Numbered from the stretch's first letter, positions 1 through 54,546 are shown. The stretch: 64,000 nt of DNA from an uncultured Gammaproteobacteria bacterium (GCA_964445355.1 CAYUKQ010000002.1:1590-65589); one strand, 5' to 3'. A program made the numbers and translations. The notes: generated from the letters alone by a model not told the origin.

Positions 1-1314
1 ACTATTTTTTTTATTTTATTACTTACTTTTAGTATTTTATTTGCTATAGAAAATCCCATAACAAAAATAATTTACACCAACCATATTCCATTTTTATCTT
101 CAGCCCAGCCAAGTAGACTAATATTTATTACAATATTTTCGCTAAGCACTTTAGCTGCGGTCGGTTTAGATAACTTTTTAAAACACCGTGAGTCCAAAAA
201 AATAACAATATTCAGTTTTTTGCTTATTCTGACCTTTATCTTAGTCGTATTTGTAATTCTCAAATTTAATTTCAAAATTTATAACCCAAGTGATTTAGTT
301 AAAGATTATACGACTGCTACAAGAAATTTAATATTACCTGTTATCTTAATCATATTTTTAATTGGATTAATTTTATTTTCGTATTTTAAGTTGGCGCCCA
401 AAAAAATTGTTGCTTTATTAATTTCGATTTTGGCAATTGGAGAATTATTGTTTTACTTTTTTAGACTTATCCCGTTATCAGATACACCAATGTTTTACCC
501 TAGCACAAAAATTACTGAATTTCTAAAACATGATGAAGGCGTATTTCGAGTCGCTACTACTGACGACAGAATTTTTCCGCCAAATATATCTGGGGTCTAT
601 GGTATTCAGTCTCCAGAGGGTTACGATCCGCTTTTCCCGAAAAATTATGCTGACTTTGTAAGCATGATTGAGACCGGTAAAAACGAACAAATCAGATTTA
701 ATAGAATATTACGGCCAAAAAATATTGATTCAAATTTATATAGTCTTTTGAATGTTAAATATATTTTAAGTTTTGATTCCAAGTTACACGATCAGTCACC
801 AATTTTTTCTGAAGGGTTAACGAATGTTTTTATTAATAAGAATTACAACGAAAGAGCGTTTATTGTTTACAAAGCCATTTCTGCTACGGATGAAAATGAT
901 TCTAAAAATAAGTTATTGAACAAAAATTTCAAACCCAACCTTGAAGCGGTAGTTTTTGGACTCGAGGACAAAATCTACAATACAAATCAAGGTAATAGTA
1001 TTAAACCAAAGGTTTTGGTCGATGCTTATTCACCAAATATTATCAAGCTTAAAGTTAAAAGTTCAAGTAGTGGAATTTTAATTCTGACCGATAATTATTT
1101 TCCTGGTTGGCGCGCAAAAGTTAACGGAGTCGAATCACGAATTTTTCGAGCCAACCACACATTTCGTGGGGTTGAAGTACCAAACGGTGAAAGTCAGGTA
1201 GATTTTTATTACGAGCCCGGCTCTTTTAAGGTTGGAGTAATAATAGCATTATTTTCTTTACTAGGCATAATGATAATATTACTTAAGTACAAAAAATATG
1301 AGTCCAAAAATTAG
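1..1314 (+). CDS. YfhO-like GT-C membrane glycosyltransferase, 5'-truncated at window edge (frame 1 is open from nt 1)
   Basis: No stop in frame 1 from position 1. The protein is hydrophobic and multi-TM. The C-terminal segment '...YFPGWRAKVNGVESRIFRANHTFRGVEVPNGESQVDFYYEP...' matches the conserved YfhO C-terminal domain. Confidence 0.55.
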   Translation, partial: TIFFILLLTFSILFAIENPITKIIYTNHIPFLSSAQPSRLIFITIFSLSTLAAVGLDNFLKHRESKKITIFSFLLILTFILVVFVILKFNFKIYNPSDLVKDYTTATRNLILPVILIIFLIGLILFSYFKLAPKKIVALLISILAIGELLFYFFRLIPLSDTPMFYPSTKITEFLKHDEGVFRVATTDDRIFPPNISGVYGIQSPEGYDPLFPKNYADFVSMIETGKNEQIRFNRILRPKNIDSNLYSLLNVKYILSFDSKLHDQSPIFSEGLTNVFINKNYNERAFIVYKAISATDENDSKNKLLNKNFKPNLEAVVFGLEDKIYNTNQGNSIKPKVLVDAYSPNIIKLKVKSSSSGILILTDNYFPGWRAKVNGVESRIFRANHTFRGVEVPNGESQVDFYYEPGSFKVGVIIALFSLLGIMIILLKYKKYESKN

Positions 1315-2227
1315 CGTTGTTATTCCAAACTACAACGGAATCAGTTTATTAAAAAAAAACTTACCTGGAATTGTTAAAAACTTTCCTGACTCTCAAATAA
1401 TTGTATCTGATGATTGTTCTCACGACAAAAGTGTTGACTGGATAAAGCAAAATTTCCCGCAAGTTGACGTTACGGTTCATAGGCAAAATTTGGGATTTTC
1501 TTCGACTGCAAACGACGGAGTAAAACTTGCCAGCGGAAAGGTTATTGTTTTATTAAATACCGATGTCTCGGTTAAAAAAAATTATTCTAAAGAAATACTT
1601 CACTATTTTCACGATAAAAATTTATTTGGTATTGGATTTCAAGACCTAAGCTATGAATCCGGGAAAGTTGTGCGAAGGGGAAGAGGGGGTGGAGAATTTA
1701 AAAAAGGACTCTTAAGTCATTACAAGGGTAGTAATTCACATGGAGCAACTCTTTGGGTCTCTGGCGGAAGTTGTGCGATAAACAGGGAAAAATTTAACAG
1801 ATTGGGAGGGTTTAATACAATTTTTAACCCATTTTATTGGGAAGATATTGATTTATCTTATCGGGCACTTAAATCTGGATGGAACATTTTGTTCACGCCT
1901 GAAATTGAAGTTGATCACTACCACGATACGGGTTCGATAAGAACAAATAATTCAAAATTGCGGATTAATCAAATTGCCCAGAGAAATATGTTTATCTTTT
2001 CGGCCAAAAACGTTACAGACTTAAATATATTAATACAATTTTATATTTATATTTTTATCTTATTTATCAAATCATTAATAAAATCAGATTATTCGACAAA
2101 CAAATCCATATTGCAATTTGCACTAAAAATTTTCAAAATTATTCGCTTAAGAAATATTGAAAAAAAACGTTATAAATTGACTGATAAAGAAATAATAAAA
2201 TATTTTGGTAATGCTCAAGAAAATTAA
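1298..2227 (+). CDS. GT2-family glycosyltransferase with C-terminal hydrophobic tail
   Basis: N-terminus 'ISVVIPNYNG...IIVSDDCSHDKS...' is a GT-A/GT2 Rossmann start with a DXD-type acidic motif. Its start overlaps the preceding gene by 17 nt. Confidence 0.75.
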   Translation: MSPKISVVIPNYNGISLLKKNLPGIVKNFPDSQIIVSDDCSHDKSVDWIKQNFPQVDVTVHRQNLGFSSTANDGVKLASGKVIVLLNTDVSVKKNYSKEILHYFHDKNLFGIGFQDLSYESGKVVRRGRGGGEFKKGLLSHYKGSNSHGATLWVSGGSCAINREKFNRLGGFNTIFNPFYWEDIDLSYRALKSGWNILFTPEIEVDHYHDTGSIRTNNSKLRINQIAQRNMFIFSAKNVTDLNILIQFYIYIFILFIKSLIKSDYSTNKSILQFALKIFKIIRLRNIEKKRYKLTDKEIIKYFGNAQEN

Positions 2228-3848
2228 AAAAATATTACCTTTATTATTGATTGTTCTGTTTGGCGCGCTCATTAGGTTGAATGGATTCGGCGAAACCCCC
2301 AAATCAATGAATTGGGACGAAGTTTCCACCTCGTACAATGCTTGGTCGATTATTCAGACAGGGAGAGATGAGTATGGTGATTTGCTGCCGATGGTTTTTA
2401 GATCTTTTGATGATTACAAGGTTCCGTTGTATGTGTATTTAACAATACCGATTGTACTAATTTTTGGCCCTATTGATTACGTGGTTAGGATTCCAAATCT
2501 AATTCTAGGCACACTAAGTATATTAGGTATTTTTTTACTTAGTCGCAGATTATTTGAAAATAAGAACATTGCACTATTATCAGCACTGATTTTTGCAACC
2601 ATACCTTGGAGCATTCATTTTTCTCGTGTTGGATTTGAAGCAAACAGTCTTATTTTTTTTACTATCTTTGGGTGGTATTTTTTTGAAAAATTTCGAAAAC
2701 TTGATGGCAAATGGTTAATTCTATCAATCACCTTCTTTTTTATTAGCCTTTATTCTTACCATTCAGCCAAACTAATAATTCCTCTCTTTGTATTAATTCT
2801 GTGTATTTCTGAGGCTAAAAAAATTCTTGGTTTGAATAAAAATATTAAGATATTATTGATAGTAATATCAATTGCTATTTTATCTCCATTAGTATACTCA
2901 ACTTTTTTTTCAGGAGCTCAAAATAGGTTTGAAGCAACTACAATTTTTTCTAAAAAAAATTTAGATGAACAAGATCCTTTAAGGAGGCTTACAGATATAG
3001 AGTCAGGTGATTCGATATCCGGTAAAATTTACCACAATACTGCCTATTACCAAATTGAAAATTTAGTAAAAAACTATTTTTCTCACTACACGTCCAATTT
3101 TTTGTTATTTACTCAAGATAATCCACGGCACCACGCAACACGAACAGGGTTGTTGCTATTCGCACAAATTATTGTGTTAATTATTGGCTTATTTACCATA
3201 TATGGAAAAAGGTATAAAAATGGTAATAAAATTTCAACGCTATCGCTTTTTCTGATCAGCCCATTGGCTTCAGCAATAACAATAGAATCCCCACACGCAA
3301 TTAGATCCTCATTAATTGTGATTCCGATAACACTTTTTTGTAGTCTAGGTGTCTACCGACTTTATACATTTTCGAAGTCGTACTTGTACACCCCATTAAT
3401 CGTATTTGTGATTTTATATATTTTTAATTTCTATTTTTTTCTTCATCAATACTATGCACATTACAATTACGAATCTGCTGAGTACTGGCAATACGGTCGA
3501 AAAGAGGCGGCATTATTTACCAAAAGTATTGAAAATAATTACGATGAGGTTTGGGTATCTAACGCCATAGAGCAAGCATATATTTATTGGTTGTTTTATC
3601 AACAAATTTCTCCTGATAAATATATTTTGACCGGAGGTACAAAAGCTGGATATCAAGGATTTAATGGAAATAGCTATGGTAAATACAAATTTTTAAATAT
3701 AGATCCAAAAAAAATTCAGTCGGATAAAAAGATTCTTCTTGTAGGATTAAAAGATGAATTTCCAATAAAACCAATTAAGCAGATTAAACTACCATCTGGT
3801 TCGGTCATTATCGACATTACTGATAATACACAATATGTCCAAAATTAA
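2205..3848 (+). CDS. GT-C glycosyltransferase, PMT_2/ArnT-like (polyprenyl-phosphate-sugar dependent)
   Basis: Twelve or more TM helices. The first extracytoplasmic loop carries a 'WDEVS...RDEYGDLLP' acidic motif typical of GT39/GT83 ArnT/PMT enzymes. Size 547 aa. Confidence 0.65.
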   Translation: MVMLKKIKKILPLLLIVLFGALIRLNGFGETPKSMNWDEVSTSYNAWSIIQTGRDEYGDLLPMVFRSFDDYKVPLYVYLTIPIVLIFGPIDYVVRIPNLILGTLSILGIFLLSRRLFENKNIALLSALIFATIPWSIHFSRVGFEANSLIFFTIFGWYFFEKFRKLDGKWLILSITFFFISLYSYHSAKLIIPLFVLILCISEAKKILGLNKNIKILLIVISIAILSPLVYSTFFSGAQNRFEATTIFSKKNLDEQDPLRRLTDIESGDSISGKIYHNTAYYQIENLVKNYFSHYTSNFLLFTQDNPRHHATRTGLLLFAQIIVLIIGLFTIYGKRYKNGNKISTLSLFLISPLASAITIESPHAIRSSLIVIPITLFCSLGVYRLYTFSKSYLYTPLIVFVILYIFNFYFFLHQYYAHYNYESAEYWQYGRKEAALFTKSIENNYDEVWVSNAIEQAYIYWLFYQQISPDKYILTGGTKAGYQGFNGNSYGKYKFLNIDPKKIQSDKKILLVGLKDEFPIKPIKQIKLPSGSVIIDITDNTQYVQN

Positions 3849-5481
3849 TTACTTTTTTAAACATAAGATAATAATATCAATTGTTTTTTTAGGATTGATA
3901 TTGCGTTTGGTTAGAATTTTTGACACCCCGCCGTCCTTGTACTGGGACGAAGTTTCGATTGGTTATAATAGCTATACTTTATCGCAGACATTTCGAGACG
4001 AACATGGTCAACTATTGCCAATAGAGGCGTTTACGGCATATGGGGATTATAAAGCTCCATTGTATATTTATTTAACCGCACCAATTGTCAAACTATTCAG
4101 TCTAAATTATCTAAGTGTCAGAGCAGTTTCAATTATTTCAGGTACTTTATTAATTTTTTTGGTTTTTTTAATTTCTAAAGAACTTTTCCCTAAAAATAAA
4201 CAAATTCCAGTATTTTCGTCGATTTTTATTGCAATTTCCCCTTGGAGTATCCAAATCTCCAGAGCAGCATTTGAAGCAAATTTAGGTGTTACATTGGGTT
4301 CTGCGGCGACGCTTATTTTTCTTAAGTCGTATAAAAATCCAAAATTTTTTTTTCTGTCAACAATACTATTTGTCCTCTCGATGTATAGCTTTAACGGCAC
4401 AAGGTACTTCTTACCATTTTGGATCGTTGGATTAGTATTTTGGTCGTACTTAAAAAATAAACACAAATTTATCAAGACAAAACACTTATTTCTGTCTAGT
4501 CTTATTGGTTTTATGATGATAATCCCATTAATAAGATTCGGATTAACTAATTCGGGACAACTGCGATATAACGAGGTAAATATTTTTTCAGACCCCAAGC
4601 CTGTACTAGAGTCAAACAGGCTACAAGAGGAGAATGGGTATTCACTGCTATCAAAAGTAATTTACAATCGCAGAGTTTTTCATGCCAAGAACTACATAAA
4701 GCACTATTTTGACAACTTCTCGTATAAGTATTTATTTGTAAGTGGAGACATTAATCCAAGATTTTCTTCTCAGCTAACTGGTCAGTTGTATATTATTGAG
4801 CTGATTCTTTTACCACTGGGTGTATATTTCGTATTTAAAAAAAATAGAAAAATATTTTATTTTCTATTTTTATGGGTTGTCATTTCGCCGGTTGCTGCAA
4901 GCGTAGCCAGGGAAACACCACATGCATTAAGAACTCTTCAGATGTTGCCCGCATTATCAATATTAAGTGCAAGCGGAATTGCCTATCTGGTAAATAAACA
5001 AAATAACAAAAAATTAAGGTGGGGGGCGTTATTTATTATTTTTTCAATGCTTGGGTTTCAATTTCTATTTTTCATTTCCAACTACTTTTTTAATTACTCA
5101 GCAAAATATGCGGACGACTGGCAGGATGGATATGCTCAATTGAACACGATACTAAGTAATCGGGAGTATGAAAACAAAAAAATTCTTATTACGGATCATT
5201 ATGGAAGAGCATATGCAAATATACTCTATTATCAAAAGTTTTCGCTTGATACGTATTTATCCACAAGAGATGCGTTTTCTGAGCCTTCAGGGCTTTGGAC
5301 AGTAAAAGGCTTTGGAAATTACAGTTTTAAACCTTCTGTTTCATGTGCAGATGCGTCAATTGCAGATTACATAATTGGTACACCCGACGATTTCGCTAAT
5401 ATTAAATTACAAAATGTTATTTTCAATAGTTTTGGCAAGCCGAAGTTTGTTATCATTAATTCCAATGAGTGTAAAAAATAA
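3835..5481 (+). CDS. GT-C glycosyltransferase, PMT_2/ArnT-like; tandem paralog of the previous gene
   Basis: Same architecture and a near-identical loop motif ('YWDEVSIGYNSYTL...RDEHGQLLP'). It overlaps the upstream paralog by 14 nt. Confidence 0.65.
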   Translation: MSKINYFFKHKIIISIVFLGLILRLVRIFDTPPSLYWDEVSIGYNSYTLSQTFRDEHGQLLPIEAFTAYGDYKAPLYIYLTAPIVKLFSLNYLSVRAVSIISGTLLIFLVFLISKELFPKNKQIPVFSSIFIAISPWSIQISRAAFEANLGVTLGSAATLIFLKSYKNPKFFFLSTILFVLSMYSFNGTRYFLPFWIVGLVFWSYLKNKHKFIKTKHLFLSSLIGFMMIIPLIRFGLTNSGQLRYNEVNIFSDPKPVLESNRLQEENGYSLLSKVIYNRRVFHAKNYIKHYFDNFSYKYLFVSGDINPRFSSQLTGQLYIIELILLPLGVYFVFKKNRKIFYFLFLWVVISPVAASVARETPHALRTLQMLPALSILSASGIAYLVNKQNNKKLRWGALFIIFSMLGFQFLFFISNYFFNYSAKYADDWQDGYAQLNTILSNREYENKKILITDHYGRAYANILYYQKFSLDTYLSTRDAFSEPSGLWTVKGFGNYSFKPSVSCADASIADYIIGTPDDFANIKLQNVIFNSFGKPKFVIINSNECKK

Positions 5482-6286
5482 TCAAACAAAAATTTCAGTC
5501 GCCATAGCCACCTTTAATGAGGAAAAAAACATTCGTTTTTGCCTCGACTCAATAAAAGGTTGGGCAGATGAAATAATAATTTTTGACGGATCTTCAACTG
5601 ATAAAACTGTAGAAATTGCCCGCGGCATGGGTGCAAAAGTGTTTATTGTTGATAATCCTCCCCATTTTCATACAAATAAACAAAAAGCCATAGATAAATG
5701 CAAGAATAATTGGATTTTTCAACTTGATGCAGATGAGGAATTGACCAGCAACTTAAAGGAAGAAATTATTCAAATAATTTCTGATCCAAACAATAAATTC
5801 CACGGCTATTATGTTCCGAGGAGGAATTATTTTTTAGCACATTGGATGAAAAAAACTGCTAACTACCCTGATCCAGTAATTAGACTATTCAAAAGAGGTT
5901 TTGCGAAAGTACCCGTAAAAAACACCCATGAACAAATTGAGATAGAGGGACAGGTGGGATGGCTAAAAAACGATATGCTTCACTACGGTGATGTTAGCTT
6001 TACAAGATATTTAATAAGAGCAAACCGTTACAGTACTATGGATGCTCGATACCTAAAACAGGACAAGGTTAATATATCACTTGGATTTTCGATCAAATAT
6101 CTTTTTCTTTATCCGATAAAAACATTTTTACTTCTATACGTCAGACACCAAGGTTTTCGTGATGGTATGGCCGGGTTTGCCTTTTCTTTGTATTCATCAA
6201 TACATTTTATTAATACGTATTTAAAATATTATGAATCAGCGAATCAAAATATTGATCGATCAGAGCCGCTTGATTACTGGGCATAA
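5465..6286 (+). CDS. GT2 polyprenyl-phosphate sugar synthase-like (GtrB/Ppm1/ArnC-like)
   Basis: GT2 start 'ISVAIATFNEEKNI...' followed by C-terminal TM helices, the GtrB/DPM1 layout. The start was chosen at the internal ATG at 5465 (MSVKNN...), because the track ORF from 5375 would overlap the upstream gene by about 100 nt. Confidence 0.55.
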   Translation: MSVKNNQTKISVAIATFNEEKNIRFCLDSIKGWADEIIIFDGSSTDKTVEIARGMGAKVFIVDNPPHFHTNKQKAIDKCKNNWIFQLDADEELTSNLKEEIIQIISDPNNKFHGYYVPRRNYFLAHWMKKTANYPDPVIRLFKRGFAKVPVKNTHEQIEIEGQVGWLKNDMLHYGDVSFTRYLIRANRYSTMDARYLKQDKVNISLGFSIKYLFLYPIKTFLLLYVRHQGFRDGMAGFAFSLYSSIHFINTYLKYYESANQNIDRSEPLDYWA

Positions 6287-11987: not shown

Positions 11988-11992
11988 GGTAT

Positions 11993-12595: not shown

Positions 12596-12602
12596 ATTAA
12601 GT

Positions 12603-15098: not shown

Positions 15099-15099
15099 A

Positions 15100-16533
15100 A
15101 TGACATCAAGTTTAACTAAAAGACTGTTACCATTGACTTTAGTTGTCATTATTTTTTTTATTACACTTATACCCAGGATTTATAAAATCGATAATTCAAT
15201 TACAGACTGGCACTCTTTTAGGCAGGCCGATACAGCGATGGTTGCTCGAAATTTTTCACAGGAGGGAATTGATTTGCTTCACCCTCGAACCGATAATATT
15301 TTAGCGATATCTGACTCAAAAATACCCAACCCCAAAGGATATACTTTCTTGGAGTTTCCAATTTATACATTAATTGTAGGATATATTTGGCAATTTACCG
15401 GCCCCCTAGAGTGGATTGGAAGGTTGGTATCTGCGATTTTTGCCTCTTTATCCAGCATATTTATCTTTTTGATTGTCAAAAAGTTTTCCTCTACAAGAAT
15501 CGCATTCATATCATCTCTCGTCTTTGCACTTACACCTTATAGTATCTATTACGGGAGAGTAATTATGCCCAACTCAACAATGATTTGTCTTGGTCTAATT
15601 TCAATCTGGTTATTTAGTAAATATTATTTCGAAAATTCTAAAATAAGCCTATTGCTCTCAGGTTTACTTTTTGCTCTATCTAGTCTGAGCTATCCATACG
15701 TAATTTTTTGGATTATTCCAATGATTTACTTAGCCATAATCAAAGATGGACTTTTCTATTATTCGATCCGATATTATATTTTTTTTCTCGTAAGTTTTTT
15801 GCCGTTATTTTTATGGCGAGCTTGGGGGGCAAATTTTCCAGAGGCCCAAATTGGATCCAATTGGTATTTCAATTATGGAGATATTAGATTTACTGGGGCA
15901 TTTTTTAGGTGGCTCATTTTTGAAAGATTATCTAAGTTAATTCTTGGTACAGGTGGATTTGTACTAATGTTTGTTGGGTTATTATCACCCAGAAAACACA
16001 AAGAAAATTATTTTTATTTTATTTGGCTGCTTTCAATGATTTTATATTTCATTATATTTGCTTCATCCAATGTTCGTCATGATTATTATCAATATATCTA
16101 TATGCCCGTATTGTCCATATATGTAGCTCTCGGTATAAATTTTATATTTAATAGCGGTCGATCTTTAGTCGAGCGAGGAATTAGTATTGGTATCGCGGCA
16201 ATCTTGATATTTATGAGCATAGCATTTGGTTATTATGAGGTTAAGGGTTATTATTCAACAAACTCCGATATTGTCGAAGCTGGGAAAAAAGCTGATGAGC
16301 TTTTAGACCCCCAAGCACGCGTTATTGCACCTTTGTCTGGAGATCTTTCATTGCTATATTATGTTAATCGTCCCGGCTGGGCTGAATTTTATGAGGAAAT
16401 TTCTGAATTCAAAAATCAGGGCGCGACCGCAATCGTTTCTCTTAAGTTCGATGAAGGCATAGAAAGATTAGCCAGAGAGAATAATGTTTTATATCGTACA
16501 AACAAGTTTATAATTATTTCACTGAATAAATGA
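15100..16533 (+). CDS. GT-C glycosyltransferase, PMT_2/ArnT-like
   Basis: 'HSFRQADTAMVARNF' loop motif and ArnT-like TM topology. The start was chosen at ATG 15100 (MTSSLTK), directly after the upstream stop. Confidence 0.65.
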   Translation: MTSSLTKRLLPLTLVVIIFFITLIPRIYKIDNSITDWHSFRQADTAMVARNFSQEGIDLLHPRTDNILAISDSKIPNPKGYTFLEFPIYTLIVGYIWQFTGPLEWIGRLVSAIFASLSSIFIFLIVKKFSSTRIAFISSLVFALTPYSIYYGRVIMPNSTMICLGLISIWLFSKYYFENSKISLLLSGLLFALSSLSYPYVIFWIIPMIYLAIIKDGLFYYSIRYYIFFLVSFLPLFLWRAWGANFPEAQIGSNWYFNYGDIRFTGAFFRWLIFERLSKLILGTGGFVLMFVGLLSPRKHKENYFYFIWLLSMILYFIIFASSNVRHDYYQYIYMPVLSIYVALGINFIFNSGRSLVERGISIGIAAILIFMSIAFGYYEVKGYYSTNSDIVEAGKKADELLDPQARVIAPLSGDLSLLYYVNRPGWAEFYEEISEFKNQGATAIVSLKFDEGIERLARENNVLYRTNKFIIISLNK

Positions 16534-17768
16534 AAGTATTATTAATTTCACCATATATTCCATACCCCCCAATCACTGGAGGGAAAGTAAGGGTTTATAA
16601 CTTTTTGAGAAAACTTAGCGAAAAACACGAAATAGTATTGATCTGTTTATTAAAAAATACGGACGAGTTTGAAGACGTCAAGGTGTTAGAAAAACAAGGT
16701 TTCAAAATATACCCTGTATTGCGTCGTAAAGCCTGGTCAATTCAAAATTTAGTTAGAACTTTATTTACCAAATACTCATTTTTAACAGTTGTTAATAATT
16801 TTTCTGCCGAAACTGAAAATTTAATTCTTGAGGTTATAAAAAAAGAAAAGCCAGACTTGATACACTTAGAGACATTTTATATGGCTCAAAGTTTACTTGC
16901 GGTCAGGGACAAGATAAAAATACCGATACTACTCGCGAAGGTCGATGTTGAAGCACAGGTTTATTTTAGAAATGCTCAACAAAAGAAAAACCCAATACTT
17001 AAATTAATGGGGTATATCGATGCAAGAAAAATGTTGAGTTATGAGGTTCAGGTCTGTAAGTATTTTGACAAAGTAACTTTTGCCAGCGAAGTGGATCGTA
17101 CCCTTCTAACCTCCTATCTTAAGAAGCGTAAAATCAATGTATCAACCGACTTGATACCCAATGGGGTAGATACAAAGCATTACGTGCCGACAAAAACTAA
17201 AAAATACTCAAAACCTACGGTTGTTTTTCTTGGAAACTTTCGCTATTTTGCCAATACTGACGCAGCATTTTATTTTGTAAGAAATATCTGGCCAATTATT
17301 ACCTCTAAAATAGATGCTCACCTTTACATTGTTGGACCTCTTTTGCCGAAAGGAATTCAACGTTTGCTTAGTAATGATGTAGCCAAGCTAAACACCGAAA
17401 ACATTACTGTTACAGGGTTTGTTGAAGAGGATGTTAAAAAAAGTATTTTATCCAAATCTTGGATTTCGGTAGCTCCGATTCGAATTGGGTCCGGCACTAA
17501 GCTAAAAATTCTTGAATCTATGGCAATTGGTACTCCGGTTATTGCTACACCGGTTGGAATTGAGGGGATTGATGCTATTGATAATAGTAGTGTGATGATC
17601 GGAGAATCACCTCAGCAAGTGGCTAACAAAATAATCAAACTACTTAAAGATCAACAATTAAGAAGAAAAATTTCAAAAAATGCACGCAAGCTTGTCGAGG
17701 ATGTTTATGAATGGGACGTTATTTGCTCTAGACTAGATCAAATATACCGCGACTTAACAAAAAAATAA
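16530..17768 (+). CDS. GT4-family glycosyltransferase
   Basis: GT-B fold, 'MKVLLISPYIPYPPITGG' N-terminus, C-terminal 'ESMAIGTPVIATPVG'. Confidence 0.75.
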   Translation: MKVLLISPYIPYPPITGGKVRVYNFLRKLSEKHEIVLICLLKNTDEFEDVKVLEKQGFKIYPVLRRKAWSIQNLVRTLFTKYSFLTVVNNFSAETENLILEVIKKEKPDLIHLETFYMAQSLLAVRDKIKIPILLAKVDVEAQVYFRNAQQKKNPILKLMGYIDARKMLSYEVQVCKYFDKVTFASEVDRTLLTSYLKKRKINVSTDLIPNGVDTKHYVPTKTKKYSKPTVVFLGNFRYFANTDAAFYFVRNIWPIITSKIDAHLYIVGPLLPKGIQRLLSNDVAKLNTENITVTGFVEEDVKKSILSKSWISVAPIRIGSGTKLKILESMAIGTPVIATPVGIEGIDAIDNSSVMIGESPQQVANKIIKLLKDQQLRRKISKNARKLVEDVYEWDVICSRLDQIYRDLTKK

Positions 17769-17769
17769 T

Positions 17770-18684
17770 ATGCAGACAAAGCCAACAGTTGATGTAATTA
17801 TTGTTAATTATAATGCTGGTACTTATTTAAAATCCTGCATTTTAAGTCTAAAAACTTGTTTGAAAAACAACTTCAAACTTAATTGCATAATAGTCGATAA
17901 TGCTTCAATCGACGACAGTATTAGCCAAGTACAGGCAGTGAAACTACCCTGGCTAAAAATAATTAAGAATTCGCAGAATGTTGGTTTTGCTGCCGGGTGC
18001 AATATTGGTATAAAACGATCTAAAGGAAGTTATGTTCTGCTACTAAACCCTGATACAAAAGTATCAAAAGACTCAATTAGTAAAATGGTTGATTTTCTAA
18101 AAATTCATCCAAAAGCTGGAATTGTTTCTGCAAAATTAGTTCTTTCTGATGGGAAAATTGACCCCGCTTCACACAGGGGGTTTCCAACTCCATGGGCATC
18201 ATTTACCTATTTCACCGGCCTGGAAAAATTTTTTCCTAAAAATCCAAAATTTAGTCAGTACCACCAGTGGTATAAGCCACTGGATAAGGTGCACGAAATA
18301 GATTCACCTTCCGGCGCATTCATGTTAATCAAAAAAGAAGTGTTCAACAAAATTGGTTTACTTGACGAAGATTTTTTTATGTACGCAGAAGATATTGATT
18401 TTTCATATCGAACTAAGCAGTCAGGTTTTCAAATCTTTTATAATCCGTCCTCGACAGTTTTACACACCAAAGGAATATCTTCTGGAATTAAAAAGCATTC
18501 TGAAAAAAAGTCAAAAGCAAGTGTTGAAACTAGAATTAGAACAACCAGACATTTTTATGAAACTATGAAGATATTTTATTTAAAACATTATTCCAATAAG
18601 TATCCTCATTTATTAAAAAATTTAGTCTTTATTTTTATCGATTTAAAAAAAACCATAAAAATAATTCGTTTAAAATATTTATAG
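17770..18684 (+). CDS. GT2-family glycosyltransferase
   Basis: 'VDVIIVNYNAGTYLKSCI...VDNASIDDS' motif set. Confidence 0.7.
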   Translation: MQTKPTVDVIIVNYNAGTYLKSCILSLKTCLKNNFKLNCIIVDNASIDDSISQVQAVKLPWLKIIKNSQNVGFAAGCNIGIKRSKGSYVLLLNPDTKVSKDSISKMVDFLKIHPKAGIVSAKLVLSDGKIDPASHRGFPTPWASFTYFTGLEKFFPKNPKFSQYHQWYKPLDKVHEIDSPSGAFMLIKKEVFNKIGLLDEDFFMYAEDIDFSYRTKQSGFQIFYNPSSTVLHTKGISSGIKKHSEKKSKASVETRIRTTRHFYETMKIFYLKHYSNKYPHLLKNLVFIFIDLKKTIKIIRLKYL

Positions 18685-18686
18685 AT

Positions 18687-19790
18687 ATGCGTATTTTTAT
18701 AGATGCGCGATTGTATGGCTCGGGCCATACAGGAATAGGGCGTTATAGTCAAAATTTAATTGACAATTTAATTGACATCAATAAAATTCACGACTTAATA
18801 TTATTGACGCATCAAAATGCATCAATCTCTTCTAAATCTAATTTGACGGTTATTAAAACATCAATCGGTCATTATGGATTTTCTGAACAGTTTAAACTAC
18901 TTAAACTAATCTCTTCTCACAACCCCGACCTTGTTCATTTTACGCATTTTAATCATCCGGTTCTTTACAATAAGCCATTTGTGGTCACAATTCATGACTT
19001 GATCAAGTCCGATTATAAAGACTACTCCTCATCAACCAGAACAAAAACCTATTACGAGATCAAACATTTTTTTTACCAAAAGGTAATTAAACATGCGGTA
19101 TTTAAATCACGCGCAATAATTACCCCATCAAACTTTTCTAAAACACGAATAATTTCTCATTTTCCAAACGTTGATAAAAAAAAGATAAACGTAATATATG
19201 AAGGTGTTGATGAATTTAAACAAATTAGTACAAAAAAAATACTCGATCAAAATAATTACTCAAAATATGGAAATTACTGCTTATACGTAGGTAATAGTTA
19301 TCCCTACAAAAATCTTAAGCTTGTTATTGAAGCAATAAAGCAAATTCCTCAACTCAATTTAGTTGTAGTCAGTAAGTCAAGCAAAGATCTCGATCTGATA
19401 AAAGCAAATACACAGCACAATAATCAATTTATTTTTCTTGAAAACGTTACGGATGCGGAACTTTCCTCGCTATATAAATATTCAAAATTTTTTATCTTTC
19501 CCTCAAAATCCGAAGGATTTGGTATCCCAGGGTTAGAAGCAATGGCCATGAGTACGCCGGTCATTTCGTCAAACGCCGGACCAATGCCTGAAATATATGG
19601 GTCTGCAGCTTTATATTTCGACCCTGATAATGTGGATGACTTAACTAAGGTAGTAAACAATTTATTACTAAACTATCAATCAGAATATATTCGACTGACT
19701 AGGCTTGGGAAATCGCAAATAAAGAAATATTCATGGTTAAGAATGGCTAAAGACACCCTTAAAATATATGAAAATTGCCTTAGTCTTTGA
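18687..19790 (+). CDS. GT4-family glycosyltransferase
   Basis: 'MRIFIDARLYGSGHTGIGRY' N-terminus and 'EGFGIPGLEAMAMSTPVISS' motif. Confidence 0.75.
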   Translation: MRIFIDARLYGSGHTGIGRYSQNLIDNLIDINKIHDLILLTHQNASISSKSNLTVIKTSIGHYGFSEQFKLLKLISSHNPDLVHFTHFNHPVLYNKPFVVTIHDLIKSDYKDYSSSTRTKTYYEIKHFFYQKVIKHAVFKSRAIITPSNFSKTRIISHFPNVDKKKINVIYEGVDEFKQISTKKILDQNNYSKYGNYCLYVGNSYPYKNLKLVIEAIKQIPQLNLVVVSKSSKDLDLIKANTQHNNQFIFLENVTDAELSSLYKYSKFFIFPSKSEGFGIPGLEAMAMSTPVISSNAGPMPEIYGSAALYFDPDNVDDLTKVVNNLLLNYQSEYIRLTRLGKSQIKKYSWLRMAKDTLKIYENCLSL

Positions 19791-20847
19791 TCCAATTACT
19801 CAAAACGGTGGAGCTGAAAAACTGTTGTGGTCCCTGGCTGATAGCTTGCCCATCGGTTCAGTTTTTACGGCCGTCGCCAATCCAGAAATTGTCCCAAAAA
19901 AATTATTACCAAGGATAATAACCTCTTGGATTCAAAATCTTCCGCTTGCCTACAAAAATCCTAAACCATACTTACCGTTTTTTCCATTAGCATACGAATC
20001 GTTTGATTTTAGTGATTTTGACTGTGTTATTTCGATTACGACTTTATTCGCGAAGGCTGTAATTACTCAGCCACACACACTTCATATTGGATATATCAAC
20101 TCCCCTCCGAGATTCCTATACTCCAAAAAAAACTTAGAGAAATACATCAACTCTCAATCTTTTGGATTAGCTCTTAATCCATTTTTTAACTGGTTAAAAA
20201 AATATGATCAAATCGCAACTAGACGTCCAGACATCTTAATAGCAAATTCCCATAACATTCAGCGTAAAATCCGCGACATTTATCATCTCGACAGTCAAGT
20301 AGTTTACCCGTTTGCTGATGATTTTTATTTTTCCTATGGATCAAAAACAGATCGATTAGATAATTTTGTGCTGGTTTCTAGACTTGAAAGATGGAAAAAC
20401 ATTGACTATGTCATCGAGGCTTTTAACCATCTGCCAGGAAAAAAATTAATTGTTGTCGGGGTTGGCAGTGATGGTAATCGTCTAAGGAAAAAAGCTGCTT
20501 CAAATATTTCCTTCACAGGCTGGATTGATTCTGCTTCTGTGGCCAAAATTGTTTCTAGTTCACAGGCCTTGATAATGCCACAGAATGAAGACTTCGGAAT
20601 TACATCAATCGAAGCACAAGCACTCCGAACGCCGGTGATCGCATTTGGTCAAGGTGGGGCAGTTGAAACGGTGATAAACAACCAGACAGGTATACTTTTT
20701 CCATCGCAAACCGTTGATTCGCTTACCCAAGCAGTTAACTCATTTACTCAAAAGAATTTCAGCGCTGACAAACTTTATCAAAATGCGCTAAAATACCGCG
20801 AGAAAGACTTTATTCAAAATATTTCAAAAATTATCTATGGGAAGTGA
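19768..20847 (+). CDS. GT4-family glycosyltransferase
   Basis: 'MKIALVFDPITQNGGAEKLL' GT4 N-terminus. Overlaps its neighbor by 23 nt. Confidence 0.7.
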   Translation: MKIALVFDPITQNGGAEKLLWSLADSLPIGSVFTAVANPEIVPKKLLPRIITSWIQNLPLAYKNPKPYLPFFPLAYESFDFSDFDCVISITTLFAKAVITQPHTLHIGYINSPPRFLYSKKNLEKYINSQSFGLALNPFFNWLKKYDQIATRRPDILIANSHNIQRKIRDIYHLDSQVVYPFADDFYFSYGSKTDRLDNFVLVSRLERWKNIDYVIEAFNHLPGKKLIVVGVGSDGNRLRKKAASNISFTGWIDSASVAKIVSSSQALIMPQNEDFGITSIEAQALRTPVIAFGQGGAVETVINNQTGILFPSQTVDSLTQAVNSFTQKNFSADKLYQNALKYREKDFIQNISKIIYGK

Positions 20848-21940
20848 TCAGTCGGTTAAAATAGCAATTTTTTGCGGGGGAAGTGGCTCAAGAATGTGGC
20901 CCGCATCTCGTTCTGACAAACCAAAACAGTTCCAGCCATTAATTGGAGGCAAAAGCACGTTTGAAAAATTAGTTGTGATTTTGGAAAAAGAGTTTGGCTC
21001 CGCAAATATTTTCCCTGTTGCCAGAAGAGAATTTGTTGGTCATATTGTTTCTCAGGCGCCTCATATTCCCCTAGAGAACATCATTATCGAGCCTGAAGGG
21101 CGAGACACAATGGCCGCCATTGGATTTGCAGCAATGGTTCTTGATACAAAATTCAATAATCCAACTGTAATTAGTCTTTGGAGTGATCATCTGATAAAAA
21201 ATGAGACAAACTTTCTTAAATCTTTGAGAAAGGCAGCAAAGGTCAGTGCAAATACATCCAAAATTGTCGAGTTGGGTGTTCGTGCAACATTTCCGAGCAC
21301 TCAGTTAGGCTATATAAAAATCGGCAAAATGCTAGAAAAGGAGGATGGTCTTGGCTTGTTCGAGTTTATTGCTCAGATTGAGAAGCCTAACCTTGAAAAG
21401 GCACAGGAATTCTTGGAATCATGGGAATATTTATGGCACCTAGGTTATTCAGTCTGGAATACGAAAACCCTGCTTGGTTATTATGAACAATTTGCTCCGA
21501 CAACTTACAAAACGCTACAAAAAATTTCTCAGCTAATTTTGAGCGGTGATAATTCAAGTAAAAGTATTAAGGATTTATTCTCTACGATCGACAAAACGTC
21601 GATTGATTATGCAATTTACGAAAAGCTAGGGGCTACCGATCGTTTAGTAATCTCTGCTGATCTGGGTTGGAGTGATGTCGGCACATGGGATGTATTAAAA
21701 GATGAGTTAAGCAAAAAACCAGAAGATAATGTCTCAACAAATAATTCAATCACTGTCGAATCAAGTGATACGCTACTATTCTCGACTAATCAGCGAAAAA
21801 TGCTGGTTGCCGTGGGAGTAAAAGGTGTAGTCGTCGTCGACACAGACGACGCTATACTTGTCGTATCCAAAGACAACAGCGGAAAAGTTAAGGACGCTGT
21901 GGTAAAACTTAAAGAAGAAGGGCATGAAGACTATCTTTAA
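20837..21940 (+). CDS. Mannose-1-phosphate guanylyltransferase-like (ManC-type NTP transferase, no PMI domain)
   Basis: 'IAIFCGGSGSRMWPASRSDKPKQF' is the nucleotidyltransferase G-loop of ManC/GMP family enzymes. At 367 aa it lacks the C-terminal cupin/PMI domain. Confidence 0.7.
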   Translation: MGSDQSVKIAIFCGGSGSRMWPASRSDKPKQFQPLIGGKSTFEKLVVILEKEFGSANIFPVARREFVGHIVSQAPHIPLENIIIEPEGRDTMAAIGFAAMVLDTKFNNPTVISLWSDHLIKNETNFLKSLRKAAKVSANTSKIVELGVRATFPSTQLGYIKIGKMLEKEDGLGLFEFIAQIEKPNLEKAQEFLESWEYLWHLGYSVWNTKTLLGYYEQFAPTTYKTLQKISQLILSGDNSSKSIKDLFSTIDKTSIDYAIYEKLGATDRLVISADLGWSDVGTWDVLKDELSKKPEDNVSTNNSITVESSDTLLFSTNQRKMLVAVGVKGVVVVDTDDAILVVSKDNSGKVKDAVVKLKEEGHEDYL

Positions 21941-21943
21941 TAA

Positions 21944-22582
21944 ATGTTATACGATTTTTTAAAACGTACTCTAGACATCATCGGCTCACTGTTCGGTATC
22001 ATAATTTTAGGTTTAATATTTCCATTTATTGCTGTAGCTGTTAAGCAATCAAGCCCTGGCCCAATTTTCGCCGATGTTCCCAAGCGAAGTGGAAAAGATG
22101 GTAAATCTTTCAAGATGTACAAATTCAGATCAATGATAAAAGATGCGCATTTGTTGTTGCAAAGCGATCCTAAGTTCAAAAAATTATACGAAGAATATAA
22201 AAAAAATTCGTACAAGCTCTCACACGATCCTCGGGTTACACCAGTTGGACATTTTATCCGGAAAACCAGTATTGATGAACTACCTCAATTCATTAATGTC
22301 CTAAAGGGTGAAATGAGTCTAGTTGGTCCGAGGGCGTATTATCCCGATGAGTTAATCAATCAACAAAAAGCTTACCCTGAGACAAAGAAATACGTCAAAA
22401 CCTTACTCACAGCCAAACCTGGACTGACTGGTCCATGGCAGGTATCAGGGCGCAGTGATATTTCTTTTGAAAAGCGAGTTAAGCTTGATGCATCCTATGC
22501 AAAAAAAAGATCAATCCTGTATGATTTAAAGATCATTATTCTCACGATTCCTGCCCTATTGTCTCAGAAAGGTGCAGTCTAG
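21944..22582 (+). CDS. Polyprenyl-phosphate sugar-1-phosphate transferase, small PglC/WbaP-C-terminal type (initiating enzyme)
   Basis: One N-terminal TM helix, then 'KMYKFRSM...' and '...IDELPQFINVLKGEMSLVGPRA', the bacterial sugar transferase signature. Confidence 0.8.
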   Translation: MLYDFLKRTLDIIGSLFGIIILGLIFPFIAVAVKQSSPGPIFADVPKRSGKDGKSFKMYKFRSMIKDAHLLLQSDPKFKKLYEEYKKNSYKLSHDPRVTPVGHFIRKTSIDELPQFINVLKGEMSLVGPRAYYPDELINQQKAYPETKKYVKTLLTAKPGLTGPWQVSGRSDISFEKRVKLDASYAKKRSILYDLKIIILTIPALLSQKGAV

Positions 22583-27503: not shown

Positions 27504-27533
27504 TTGACAATAATTCTTTTTATGGTGAATAAT
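27504..27533 (+). promoter_or_regulatory. Putative sigma70-type promoter of the dcw operon (TTGACA-18-AATAAT)
   Basis: TTGACA at 27504-27509 and AATAAT at 27528-27533, about 45 nt upstream of the mraZ ATG. Confidence 0.4.
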
Positions 27534-54308: not shown

Positions 54309-54374
54309 CTATCAAAAATTATACCTTATTTTTTGCTATAAGCTCTTTATGTATCCTTCAAACTATTCATGGTT

Positions 54375-54446
54375 AGATAATCTGAGCCGAAGGTGGGAAT
54401 CGAACCCACGACCTACTGTTTACGAAACAGCCGCTCTACCACTGAG
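54375..54446 (-). tRNA. tRNA-Thr (anticodon CGU)
   Basis: The reverse complement folds as a cloverleaf: acceptor GCCGAAG/CTTCGGC, D-arm GCTC-AGTGGTA-GAGC, anticodon arm GCTGT-TTCGTAA-ACAGT, T-arm GTGGG-TTCGATT-CCCAC. CCA is not encoded. Confidence 0.8.
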
Positions 54447-54546
54447 CCACTTCGGCACTCCAATTTTAAATTCTGGCCTCAATATAAGGCAGAACCACCC
54501 CTTAGCTAGCTACCGCCAAATAATCCTCTCAGGGGCTAGATTATAA

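What the first reader, a model, noticed from the sequence alone, without database searches (positions are those of the whole stretch)
1..22582. 22-kb uninterrupted co-directional glycan-assembly operon with unusually many GT-C enzymes and no obvious exporter
Twenty consecutive + strand genes have overlapping or abutting boundaries, with no gap over about 45 nt. The set is six GT4, four GT2, and six multi-pass GT-C glycosyltransferases (YfhO-like, four PMT_2/ArnT-like, one PIG-V-like). It also has one Wzy/O-antigen-ligase-like gene, an acetyltransferase, ManC and a PglC-type primer. Classical O-antigen or capsule loci carry one polymerase or ligase and a Wzx or ABC exporter. Here I see six enzymes that transfer sugars on the extracytoplasmic face and no flippase or transporter. 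The locus is about 10 GC points below the housekeeping genes. This argues for a dedicated extracytoplasmic glycosylation system, possibly for a protein, pilin, S-layer or lipoglycan, rather than a standard O-antigen locus.
Basis: partly seen in the sequence, partly recalled or inferred. Interest (0 to 1): 0.75.

Follow-up and report, generated by a model that had tools for sequence, protein, structure and literature searches.

The report
Surface-glycan gene cluster of a CPR bacterium
This is the downstream two-thirds of a roughly 37-kb cell-surface sugar-polymer assembly locus that is conserved across Levybacteria-type ultrasmall (CPR) bacteria and unusually rich in outward-facing membrane glycosyltransferases; its apparently missing flippase most likely lies just upstream of the window edge.

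Summary
The gene inventory is confirmed. Twenty tightly packed + strand genes are one YfhO, four PMT_2, one PIG-V-like GT-C, one Wzy_C, six GT4, four GT2, one hexapeptide acyltransferase, one ManC-like enzyme and one small phosphoglycosyltransferase.

Two claims fail. First, the missing exporter is a window-edge artefact. In the closest relative (about 73% nt identity, one 90-kb contig), in about 52% relatives, and in 54 of 59 GTDB loci with enough flank, a Wzx flippase sits a few genes upstream of the same GT4-YfhO pair. A contig from a sample that also holds the window's species shows, in order:
- Dol-P-Man-synthase-like GT2 fused to a GtrA domain
- PMT_2
- short DPMS-like GT2
- MptA/B-like protein
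- PMT_2
- two YfhO/PTPS-like proteins
- Wzx
- GT2, GT2

It ends about 256 nt before the known upstream GT4. Second, the GC deficit is 4.5 points (GC3 3.2), not 10.

The organism is a Patescibacteria (Levybacteria-related) bacterium, so O-antigen is the wrong comparison. The best reading is a Wzx/Wzy-type polyprenol-linked glycan pathway. The glycan is extended outside the membrane by about 11-12 GT-C enzymes fed by polyprenyl-phosphate-hexose. [quoted passage not shown] The locus is lineage-typical, present in public genomes and uncharacterised.

The parts
1..1314 (+). g1: C-terminal 437 aa of a 772-aa YfhO-family GT-C glycosyltransferase (N-terminus lies upstream of the window)
   Evidence: PF09586 scores 65 bits against a cut-off of 28.5. 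The full-length gene is in L001, which is 100% identical to the window. 402 homologs, named ones from Levybacteria and Microgenomates.
1298..2227 (+). g2: GT2 (GT-A fold) glycosyltransferase, always immediately downstream of YfhO in relatives
   Evidence: PF00535 and PF13641. Its PDB and NCBIfam matches are generic GT2 enzymes, not Dol-P-sugar synthases. The YfhO-GT2 adjacency is conserved in nearly all of the 80 GTDB loci.
2205..3848 (+). g3: PMT_2 family GT-C (about 10 TM)
   Evidence: PF13231 at 46.9 bits and PF02366 at 25.9 bits. TM count. It is 31% identical to g4.
3835..5481 (+). g4: PMT_2 family GT-C
   Evidence: PF13231 at 32.5 bits. Ortholog present in L006, L009 and L014.
5375..6286 (+). 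g5: GT2 glycosyltransferase (real start probably ATG 5465, giving 273 aa as in orthologs)
   Evidence: PF00535 at 67.8 bits. Alternative starts. Ortholog lengths of 272-287 aa.
6231..7250 (+). g6: GT4 (GT-B fold) glycosyltransferase
   Evidence: PF00534 at 91 bits and PF13439.
7222..8367 (+). g7: 380-aa, 11-TM GT-C fold protein, divergent PIG-V/GT76-like (ATG at 7225)
   Evidence: No direct Pfam hit. 8463 representative homologs. 34 of 66 homologs hit PF04188. AF2 pLDDT 95.6. The strongest Foldseek PDB hits are GT-C enzymes: STT3, GPI-MT-I, ArnT, AftB, ALG12/9/3. D68 is invariant in the first external loop.
8367..9803 (+). g8: PMT_2 family GT-C
   Evidence: PF13231 at 38 bits. Weak NCBIfam hit to a mannosyltransferase model.
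9800..10894 (+). g9: GT4 glycosyltransferase
   Evidence: PF00534 at 99 bits.
10881..11987 (+). g10: GT4 glycosyltransferase
   Evidence: PF00534 at 118 bits.
11993..12595 (+). g11: left-handed beta-helix (hexapeptide) acyl/acetyltransferase
   Evidence: PF00132 at 59 bits.
12603..13517 (+). g12: GT2 glycosyltransferase
   Evidence: PF00535 at 60.9 bits.
13518..15098 (+). g13: 526-aa, about 13-TM Wzy_C-domain protein (polymerase, ligase or O-oligosaccharyltransferase class)
   Evidence: PF04932 at 54 bits against a cut-off of 31.7. TM count. No PDB relative by sequence.
15055..16533 (+). g14: PMT_2 family GT-C (start probably ATG 15100)
   Evidence: PF13231 at 49.1 bits. Alternative starts.
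16530..17768 (+). g15: GT4 glycosyltransferase
   Evidence: PF13692 at 88.8 bits and PF00534 at 69 bits.
17770..18684 (+). g16: GT2 glycosyltransferase
   Evidence: PF00535 at 72 bits. It is 34% identical to the upstream 291-aa GT2 of L011.
18687..19790 (+). g17: GT4 glycosyltransferase
   Evidence: PF00534 at 101.8 bits.
19768..20847 (+). g18: GT4 glycosyltransferase
   Evidence: PF00534 at 88.6 bits.
20837..21940 (+). g19: mannose-1-phosphate guanylyltransferase-like enzyme (GMP part only, no isomerase domain), supplying GDP-mannose
   Evidence: PF00483 and PF22640. TIGR01479 at 241 bits over model positions 4-352 of 467, below the equivalog cut-off of 373.
21944..22582 (+). g20: small (212 aa) monotopic polyprenyl-phosphate phosphoglycosyltransferase, the priming enzyme
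   Evidence: PF02397 at 198 bits. TIGR03025 at 242 bits. PDB matches: WbaP catalytic domain 2.6e-43 and PglC 6.9e-29, with the DELPQ motif aligned.
22629..24518 (+). g21: DUF4012 protein with an N-terminal TM helix; probable accessory member and 3' end of the cluster
   Evidence: PF13196 at 70 bits. DUF4012 is a CPR-enriched family and lies next to the priming glycosyltransferase in the Bifidobacterium longum EPS locus (PMC6744442 and PMC5412050). The single-sequence structure model was unusable.

Best explanation
The window holds the 3' two-thirds of a locus of about 37 kb and about 33 genes. It is vertically inherited in a Levybacteria-related CPR bacterium and builds one or more cell-surface glycans on polyprenyl-phosphate carriers.

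Proposed mechanism:
1. g19 makes GDP-mannose.
2. g20, a PglC-sized monotopic phosphoglycosyltransferase, primes polyprenyl-P with a sugar-1-phosphate.
3. Seven GT4 and about six GT2 enzymes extend the lipid-linked oligosaccharide on the cytoplasmic face, and g11 acylates it.
4. A Wzx flippase flips the intermediate. It is encoded four genes upstream of the window start.
5. In parallel, two Dol-P-Man-synthase-like GT2 enzymes upstream load hexose, probably mannose, onto polyprenyl-P. One of them is fused to a GtrA-type TM domain.
6. About 11-12 GT-C enzymes then add sugars on the outer face. They are two to three YfhO/PTPS-like proteins, six PMT_2, one PIG-V-like and one MptA/B-like protein.
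7. The Wzy_C protein g13 polymerises the unit or transfers it to its acceptor. DUF4012 acts as an accessory protein.

Shown: gene families, order, folds and conservation. Inferred: the order of reactions, the sugars, the topology, whether this is one pathway or several, and the acceptor (lipid, peptidoglycan or protein).
For: -
- L001 overlaps the window at 100% identity and adds the full YfhO and an upstream GT4.
- The closest relative, L014 (73% nt identity, colinear, one 89,987-nt contig), carries PMT_2 - GT2(242) - MptA_B - PMT_2 - YfhO-like - PTPS_related - Wzx - GT2 - GT2 - GT4 - YfhO - GT2 - PMT_2 - PMT_2 - GT2 - GT4 - g7 ortholog - PMT_2.
- The same order occurs in L008, L009, L012, L013, L021 and L022.
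- L010/L011 are 75% identical to L014 (the window is 73%). L010 comes from sample SRR14932482, which also yielded L003, a contig 100% identical to the window. L011 ends 256 nt before L001 begins on the L014 scaffold.
- L010 Pfam content is a GDP_Man_Dehyd-like protein, a GT2+GtrA_DPMS_TM fusion, PMT_2, GT2, PMT_2, a weak YfhO, PTPS_related and Wzx.
- The GT2-GtrA fusion matches P. furiosus Dol-P-Man synthase 5MLZ end to end at E 2.5e-48. The 242-aa GT2 also has DPMS as its best hit, at 1.7e-23.
- The 366-aa protein matches MptA weakly, at 6.8e-13.
- g7 has the GT-C fold.
- At least 543 YfhO relatives were found in GTDB species genomes. In the best 80 loci, 54 of 59 with 7 kb or more of upstream flank have a Wzx upstream, and the median is 7 GT-C-like genes per 22 kb.
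- The GT-A + flippase + GT-C (YfhO/PMT_2) logic is established in Gram-positives, and a Wzx/Wzy plus GtsABC precedent exists in B. anthracis (PMC8035078).
Against: - The link between L011 (which carries the Wzx) and the window's genome is not closed. A gap of about 256 nt remains, and the source contig seems to begin near the GT4.
- Nothing shows that all genes serve one product. The conserved order could simply reflect inheritance of several adjacent systems.
- No Wzz/PCP, LCP ligase or oligosaccharyltransferase (STT3/PglB) was found in the window.
- The role of Wzy_C is ambiguous.
- Most NCBIfam hits are far below the equivalog cut-offs, so sugar specificities are unknown.
- Promoter and terminator scans were at chance level, so operon structure is unproven.
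Confidence: 0.6

Rival explanations
1. This is a protein glycosylation system. The lipid-linked glycan is transferred en bloc to pilins or S-layer proteins by the Wzy_C protein acting as a PglL/PilO-type O-oligosaccharyltransferase. Alternatively or additionally, PMT_2 enzymes O-mannosylate secreted proteins directly from polyprenyl-P-mannose, as actinobacterial Pmt and the streptococcal Pgf and GtrB/GT-C systems do.
For: - The Wzy_C domain is shared by O-oligosaccharyltransferases (domain call only).
- PMT_2/PMT hits for g3.
- The YfhO and the upstream GT2 enzymes give weak NCBIfam hits to S. mutans PgfM2 and PgfS.
- Type IV pili are a CPR hallmark (PMC6744442).
- ManC and DPMS-like genes supply mannose donors.
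Against: - No acceptor protein was identified. No strongly Ser/Thr-rich candidate lies in the window.
- About 14 cytoplasmic glycosyltransferases plus a Wzx suggest a large glycan or polymer.
- No sequence feature tested here separates an O-OTase from a Wzy or a ligase (one search found no solved relative).
Confidence: 0.2
2. This is a glycosylation 'island' of several independent systems that merely sit side by side. Examples would be a YfhO-GT2 pair decorating a teichoic-acid-like polymer, PMT_2 enzymes with other targets, and a separate Wzx/Wzy exopolysaccharide module.
For: - In Firmicutes, GT-A/GT-C pairs act independently on different polymers while sharing one flippase (PMC8035078).
- GT-C copy number and order vary among Levybacteria loci around a stable core of Wzx...GT4-YfhO-GT2.
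- The paralogs are ancient, at 25-35% identity.
- A second mini-locus of GT2, Wzy_C and a PIG-V-like protein exists at 50.5-53.6 kb.
Against: - Overlapping or abutting reading frames run across all 20 genes.
- The locus has only one priming phosphoglycosyltransferase and one Wzx.
- Colinearity is strict across species at 52-73% identity.
Confidence: 0.17
3. One reading: an exporter-independent, purely extracytoplasmic glycosylation system that was acquired horizontally, as suggested by low GC.
For: Inside 1..22582 there is no flippase or ABC gene. GC is lower than in neighbouring genes.
Against: - A Wzx and a GtrA-domain protein lie in the upstream part of orthologous loci, and in a contig most likely from the same species.
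- The GC gap is only 4.5 points, and 3.2 at third codon positions.
- The locus is conserved in hundreds of related species genomes.
Confidence: 0.03

Closest known systems
Multi-component transmembrane glycosylation systems of Gram-positive bacteria (CsbB-GtcA-YfhO, GtlA/GtlB, L. lactis CsdAB/CD/EF, B. anthracis GtsABC acting on a Wzx/Wzy-made SCWP)
   Same: A GT-A (GT2) enzyme loads a sugar on polyprenyl-P. A GtrA- or Wzx-type protein flips it. A YfhO- or PMT_2-type GT-C transfers it outside the membrane. The locus also has priming PGT + Wzx + Wzy logic, as proposed for the B. anthracis SCWP (PMC8035078). All three component types are present here.
   Different: The known systems have one GT-C per module, and one to three modules scattered in the genome. 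Here about 11-12 GT-C genes of five sequence families are packed into one conserved locus. There are only two recognisable polyprenyl-P-hexose synthases. The GtrA domain is fused to the synthase, as in archaeal DPMS. The target polymer is unknown.
Mycobacterial/corynebacterial LM/LAM and PIM assembly (PimA/B GT4 inside; Ppm1; PimE, MptA, MptB, MptC GT-C outside)
   Same: Two-stage mannan assembly. GDP-Man-dependent GT4 enzymes act inside. Polyprenyl-P-Man-dependent GT-C enzymes act outside. An MptA/B-like protein and GT87-like relatives are present. ManC and DPMS-like genes lie in the locus.
   Different: Priming here is by a phosphoglycosyltransferase on polyprenyl-P, not on phosphatidylinositol. 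A Wzx and a Wzy_C protein are present. The MptA match is 48 bits against a cut-off of 439, so this is resemblance and not membership. The actinobacterial genes are dispersed rather than in one locus.
Eukaryotic/archaeal lipid-linked oligosaccharide (ALG) pathway
   Same: Cytoplasmic GT-B mannosyltransferases act first, then flipping, then a series of Dol-P-Man/Glc-dependent GT-C enzymes. The DPMS-like synthase matches P. furiosus DPMS end to end. The g7 fold matches ALG3/9/12 and GPI mannosyltransferase I.
   Different: No STT3/AglB/PglB oligosaccharyltransferase was found in the window. The priming enzyme is a monotopic PGT, not ALG7/WecA-type. The terminal step is presumably carried out by a Wzy_C protein.
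Wzx/Wzy-dependent O-antigen, capsule and EPS loci (including the Bifidobacterium longum EPS locus with priming GT + DUF4012 + Wzz)
   Same: Priming PGT, GT2/GT4 enzymes, acetyltransferase, nucleotide-sugar gene, Wzx (upstream) and a Wzy_C protein. The PGT-DUF4012 adjacency matches B. longum.
   Different: No Wzz/PCP was found. The host is a CPR bacterium without LPS. The large GT-C complement is absent from standard loci.

Membership tests
GT-C fold glycosyltransferase superfamily (for g7, 7225-8364) | Multi-pass membrane protein with the conserved GT-C N-terminal module, and an acidic residue in the first extracytoplasmic loop | tested here: met
   11 hydrophobic segments. AF2 pLDDT 95.6. The strongest Foldseek PDB hits are all GT-C enzymes, at TM 0.41-0.50. 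D68 is invariant in 66 homologs and lies in the loop after TM1.
PIG-V / Mannosyl_trans2 (PF04188, CAZy GT76) for g7 | Score at or above the Pfam gathering threshold for PF04188 | tested here: not met
   g7 itself gives no Pfam hit even at E<=1. 34 of 66 homologs do hit PF04188, best 7.4e-15; 9 hit PMT_2 and 6 hit GT87. g7 is therefore a divergent relative of the PIG-V-like clade, not a demonstrated member.
YfhO family (PF09586) for g1 | Pfam gathering score; length about 750-850 aa; multi-TM | tested here: met
   65 bits against 28.5 on the truncated product. Full length is 772 aa in L001. The precomputed PF09586 hit is present on all homologs.
PMT_2 (PF13231; GT39/GT83-like) for g3, g4, g8, g14 | Pfam gathering score of 26.1 bits | tested here: met
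   46.9, 32.5, 38.0 and 49.1 bits. CAZy family assignment (dbCAN) was not run.
Wzx/Wzy-dependent glycan pathway | Priming polyprenyl-phosphate phosphoglycosyltransferase in the locus | tested here: met
   g20 scores 198 bits on PF02397 and matches the WbaP and PglC catalytic domains.
Wzx/Wzy-dependent glycan pathway | Wzx (PST-family, PF01943/PF13440) flippase encoded in the locus of this genome | tested here: inconclusive
   Absent from window 1-22582. Present at the orthologous position in L008, L009, L012, L013, L014, L021 and L022, and in 54 of 59 GTDB loci. Present in L010/L011, which are most likely the same species; L010 shares its sample with a contig 100% identical to the window, both have matching divergence from L014, and a 256-nt gap remains unbridged.
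Wzx/Wzy-dependent glycan pathway | Wzy-type polymerase | tested here: inconclusive
   g13 has the Wzy_C domain at 54 bits. That domain does not separate polymerase, ligase and O-oligosaccharyltransferase. No solved relative was found by sequence.
Wzx/Wzy-dependent glycan pathway | Wzz/PCP chain-length regulator | tested here: not met
   No Wzz-type hit among the window ORFs of 120 aa or more that were scanned, or among the L010 genes. The fold of DUF4012 is unresolved.
Multi-component transmembrane glycosylation system (GT-A + flippase + GT-C) | Membrane-associated GT2 that makes polyprenyl-P-sugar | tested here: met
   L010:513-1661 matches Dol-P-Man synthase 5MLZ over its full length at E 2.5e-48. 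The 242-aa GT2 matches DPMS at 1.7e-23, and also GtrB and ArnC. Both lie upstream of the window, on a contig that is probably, but not provably, from the same genome. Activity was not tested.
Multi-component transmembrane glycosylation system (GT-A + flippase + GT-C) | GtrA-type small flippase, or an equivalent | tested here: met
   A GtrA_DPMS_TM domain (47 bits) is fused to the DPMS-like GT2. Flippase activity cannot be tested here.
LPS O-antigen locus | Host with lipid A-core and a WaaL ligation step | not testable with these tools
   Only 64 kb of the genome is visible. Relatives are CPR bacteria, which are reported to lack a Gram-negative envelope (PMC6744442). That part is inference.
N-glycosylation (OST-dependent) pathway | STT3/AglB/PglB oligosaccharyltransferase | tested here: not met
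   No STT3-family Pfam hit in any scanned protein. The g7 fold resembles STT3 only at the level of the shared GT-C core.
Mycobacterial MptA (TIGR03459) | NCBIfam equivalog cut-off of 439 bits | tested here: not met
   L010:3956-5053 scores 48 bits. The precomputed PF26314 MptA_B_family hit is on record for the orthologs, but my own hmmscan gave no hit.

The most novel reading that the evidence does not exclude
Levybacteria-type CPR bacteria run a bacterial counterpart of the ER-type ALG pathway. A single lipid-linked oligosaccharide is started by a PGT and GT4/GT2 enzymes in the cytoplasm, flipped by Wzx, and then matured outside by about a dozen polyprenyl-P-hexose-dependent GT-C enzymes. A Wzy_C-type transferase then moves it en bloc onto pilins or S-layer proteins that mediate attachment to host cells. 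That would make it the most GT-C-intensive glycan pathway known in bacteria and a determinant of episymbiosis.
Probability: 0.15. Interest if true: 0.8.

Novelty: new variant of a known kind. Interest (0 to 1): 0.45.

Why it matters
CPR/Patescibacteria have genomes of about 1 Mb and depend on other cells. A conserved locus of about 37 kb devoted to surface glycan assembly would be roughly 3-4% of such a genome. That is a large investment, and the locus is therefore a good candidate determinant of envelope architecture and host attachment.

The locus has a compact layout: two polyprenyl-P-hexose synthases feeding about a dozen GT-C enzymes next to a Wzx/Wzy core. It could serve as a natural test bed for GT-C specificity, and for how extracytoplasmic glycan elaboration evolved, by comparison with mycobacterial lipoglycans and eukaryotic ALG enzymes.

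For the scan itself, the case is a warning. An 'absent exporter' at a window edge should be checked against orthologous loci before it is treated as an anomaly.

Tried and rejected
- Single-protein scans of GTDB genomes and JGI metagenomes with the YfhO found no close relative. Only the alignment-based scan worked.
- The source record could not be fetched. It is an NCBI contig of 75,253 nt carrying an identical YfhO (P0001), and it is not on record for look-up.
- No 100% match to the upstream GT4 exists in the protein database, so the source contig probably begins in or near that gene.
It was redone with hits from the representative search.
- Direct Pfam searches of g7, of 25211-26038 and of 52504-53565 gave nothing.
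- A PDB sequence search with the Wzy_C protein gave only chance hits.
- The single-sequence AF2 model of DUF4012 was unusable (pLDDT 38), so no fold search was run on it.
- Sigma-70 promoter and intrinsic terminator scans were at or below shuffled expectation. Operon boundaries remain undefined. The only good promoter-like site (11 of 12) is at 27504-27533, before mraZ.
- The horizontal-transfer idea was rejected. The GC3 gap is 3.2 points and the locus is conserved across the lineage.
- Full-text searches for CPR or Patescibacteria together with GT-C, YfhO or mannosyltransferase found no description of this locus. They returned only passing remarks on multiple Dol-P-mannosyltransferase genes in Peregrinibacteria and a PIM-like pathway in Saccharibacteria.
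- A search for Ser/Thr-rich candidate acceptor proteins in the window found nothing striking.

Full report
OBSERVATION

ORF listing shows 20 consecutive + strand genes filling 1..22582. Junctions run from -107 to +7 nt with longest-ORF starts. With starts that match ortholog lengths they are small overlaps or gaps of 7 nt or less.

- g1 is YfhO, cut by the window start.
- g3, g4, g8 and g14 are PMT_2.
- g13 is Wzy_C.
- g6, g9, g10, g15, g17 and g18 are GT4.
- g2, g5, g12 and g16 are GT2.
- g11 is a hexapeptide transferase.
- g19 is ManC-like. It has the guanylyltransferase part only.
- g20 is a 212-aa Bac_transf phosphoglycosyltransferase. Its catalytic domain aligns to WbaP (2.6e-43) and PglC (6.9e-29), with the DELPQ motif aligned.

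The 'PIG-V-like' g7 has no direct Pfam hit. An exhaustive phmmer search found 8463 representative homologs. Of 66 aligned homologs, 34 hit PF04188 Mannosyl_trans2/PIG-V, 9 hit PMT_2 and 6 hit GT87. An AlphaFold model built on that alignment has pLDDT 95.6. Its strongest PDB matches are all GT-C enzymes: STT3, GPI mannosyltransferase I, ArnT, AftB, ALG12/9/3, PglB and PMT. So g7 is a GT-C fold protein related to, but not formally in, the PIG-V family.

Position 1 is not a boundary. Contig L001 is 100% identical to window 1-2834. It extends 2025 nt upstream and gives the full 772-aa YfhO and an overlapping upstream GT4.

The YfhO has hundreds of homologs. The named ones come from Candidatus Levybacteria, Microgenomates, Saccharimonadales and Patescibacteria.

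In the closest relative found (70% YfhO identity, about 73% nt identity, colinear), one 89,987-nt contig (L014) carries, all on one strand: PMT_2 - GT2(242 aa) - MptA_B-like - PMT_2 - YfhO-like(543) - PTPS_related(565) - Wzx(491) - GT2 - GT2 - GT4 - YfhO - GT2 - PMT_2 - PMT_2 - GT2 - GT4 - g7 ortholog - PMT_2. The same order is seen in relatives at about 52% identity: L008, L009 and L012/L013, and in GTDB genomes L021 and L022.

Contigs L010 and L011 are 99.95% identical to each other. L010 comes from sample SRR14932482, which also yielded L003, a contig 100% identical to the window. They are 75% identical to L014, where the window is 73%. L011 ends at L014 position 9745, and L001 begins at 10002. 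They are therefore most likely the window's own upstream sequence, with an unbridged gap of about 256 nt.

Their genes, in order:
- a GDP-mannose-dehydratase-like enzyme
- a GT2 fused to a GtrA_DPMS_TM domain
- PMT_2
- a 242-aa GT2
- a 366-aa MptA/B-like protein (weak TIGR03459 hit)
- PMT_2
- two YfhO/PTPS-related proteins
- Wzx (PF13440, 161 bits)
- two GT2

The Wzx is 88% identical to that of L014. The GT2-GtrA fusion aligns end to end with Pyrococcus furiosus dolichol-phosphate mannose synthase (5MLZ, E 2.5e-48). The 242-aa GT2 also has DPMS as its best hit (1.7e-23), followed by GtrB and ArnC. g2, by contrast, resembles generic GT2 enzymes.

HOW GENERAL IT IS

A scan of one genome per GTDB species with a YfhO alignment found at least 543 relatives. 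The best 80 loci carry titles such as Levybacteria/Levyibacteriota, Microgenomates, Curtiss-, Roizman- and Gottesmanbacteria, and Patescibacteria. Many co-assembly MAGs are titled 'uncultured Gammaproteobacteria', which I take to be a placeholder.

I classified their ORFs with phmmer against this cluster's proteins. This gives a recurring order: PTPS-like - short GT2 - Wzx - GT2 - GT2 - (GT2) - (YfhO) - GT4 - YfhO - GT2 - short GT2 - PMT_2 xN. Of 59 loci with 7 kb or more of upstream flank, 54 have a Wzx upstream of the YfhO. The median is 7 GT-C-like genes per 22 kb, with a range of 4-9. These labels are best-hit approximations.

The locus is thus a lineage-typical, vertically inherited feature and not an island. 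GC supports this. The cluster is 33.5% against 38.0% for the flanking RecO-to-ParB genes, and GC3 is 28.9% against 32.1%. Only the 54-64 kb tail, at 45%, is about 11 points higher.

Co-directionality is also not specific to the cluster. All genes to 49.8 kb are on the + strand, and spacing of 46 nt or less continues to 27.4 kb. The functional 3' end is probably DUF4012 (g21). That family is CPR-enriched, and in Bifidobacterium longum it lies next to the priming transferase of the EPS locus.

MECHANISM

Taken together, the locus combines two known logics.

The first is a Wzx/Wzy-type pathway: a priming PGT, GT4/GT2 extension on the cytoplasmic face, an acetyltransferase, Wzx and a Wzy_C protein.

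The second is the multi-component transmembrane glycosylation scheme of Gram-positive bacteria. There a GT-A enzyme makes polyprenyl-P-sugar, a GtrA- or Wzx-type protein flips it, and a YfhO or PMT_2 GT-C transfers it outside the membrane (PMC8035078).

ManC plus two DPMS-like synthases point to mannose as a major donor. This gives a resemblance to mycobacterial LM/LAM assembly and to the eukaryotic ALG pathway. Membership in those families fails the tests applied. There is no PI-based priming, no STT3, and the MptA score is far below cut-off.

The families, their order, the folds and the conservation are shown. The reaction order, sugar identities, topology, one pathway versus several, and the acceptor are inferred. 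No Wzz, LCP or OST was seen in the window.

VERDICT

The anomaly that made it interesting, no exporter, is a window-edge artefact, and the GC argument is overstated. What remains notable is the number and diversity of GT-C genes, about 11-12 from five sequence families, in one conserved locus of an ultrasmall-genome lineage. My full-text searches found no paper describing this locus. I rate it a new variant of a known kind, of moderate interest.

Noticed in passing
window 50471-53565 (+): A second, small glycan locus: GT2 (50471-51346), a Wzy_C protein (51288-52517, 46 bits) and an 8-TM protein with no Pfam hit (52504-53565). The last is a paralog of g7 (27.5% identity, E 3e-23). The trio mirrors the g12-g13 pair and g7 of the main cluster.
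   Followed up: partly
window 53586-56276 (- strand): Three - strand surface or secreted-type genes alternate with tRNA-Thr(CGT), tRNA-Gly(CCC) and tRNA-Asp(GTC). The genes are an Ig-like/Glucodextranase-B domain protein, a peptidase C39-like protein and a LysM protein.
   Followed up: no
window 54400-64000: GC rises to 45-49% against 37% for the whole window. Genes here are PolX-PHP (57091-58839), LemA, a 587-aa alpha/beta-hydrolase-like protein and a 464-aa unknown protein whose hydrophobic N-terminus looks like a signal peptide. The compositional shift is unexplained.
   Followed up: no
whole window: Only 3 of 46 gene starts have a Shine-Dalgarno-like core (GGAG, GAGG or AGGA) within 20 nt upstream. 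One of the three is DUF4012 at 22629. Many cluster genes overlap their neighbour by 4-23 nt, which suggests translational coupling or SD-independent initiation.
   Followed up: partly
window 1-49776: All of about 41 genes lie on the + strand. After the glycan cluster come RecO, GlyRS, a complete dcw cluster (mraZ, rsmH, ftsI, Mur ligases, mraY, murD, ftsW, murG, ftsA, ftsZ), pyrG, ileS, rodA, probable rplU/rpmA (48.2-48.9 kb) and parB.
   Followed up: partly
loci L020-L099 (GTDB records): Many MAG records that carry the Levybacteria-type locus are titled 'uncultured Gammaproteobacteria bacterium' (binchicken/SRP co-assemblies). One (L084) is titled Candidatus Sulfotelmatobacter. The titles look like placeholders, mislabels or contaminant contigs.
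   Followed up: no
L018 8640-8882, L019 8560-8835 (- strand): In more distant Levybacteria loci, a small DUF5652 gene on the opposite strand interrupts the cluster just upstream of the GT4-YfhO pair. It is absent from the window's lineage.
   Followed up: no
L006/L007 starts; L001, L010, L011 ends: Independent short-read assemblies from several samples all break within the 2-3 kb around the GT2-GT4-YfhO junction. The source NCBI contig also seems to begin there. Low coverage is the simplest reason, but strain-level variation at this point was not excluded.
   Followed up: no
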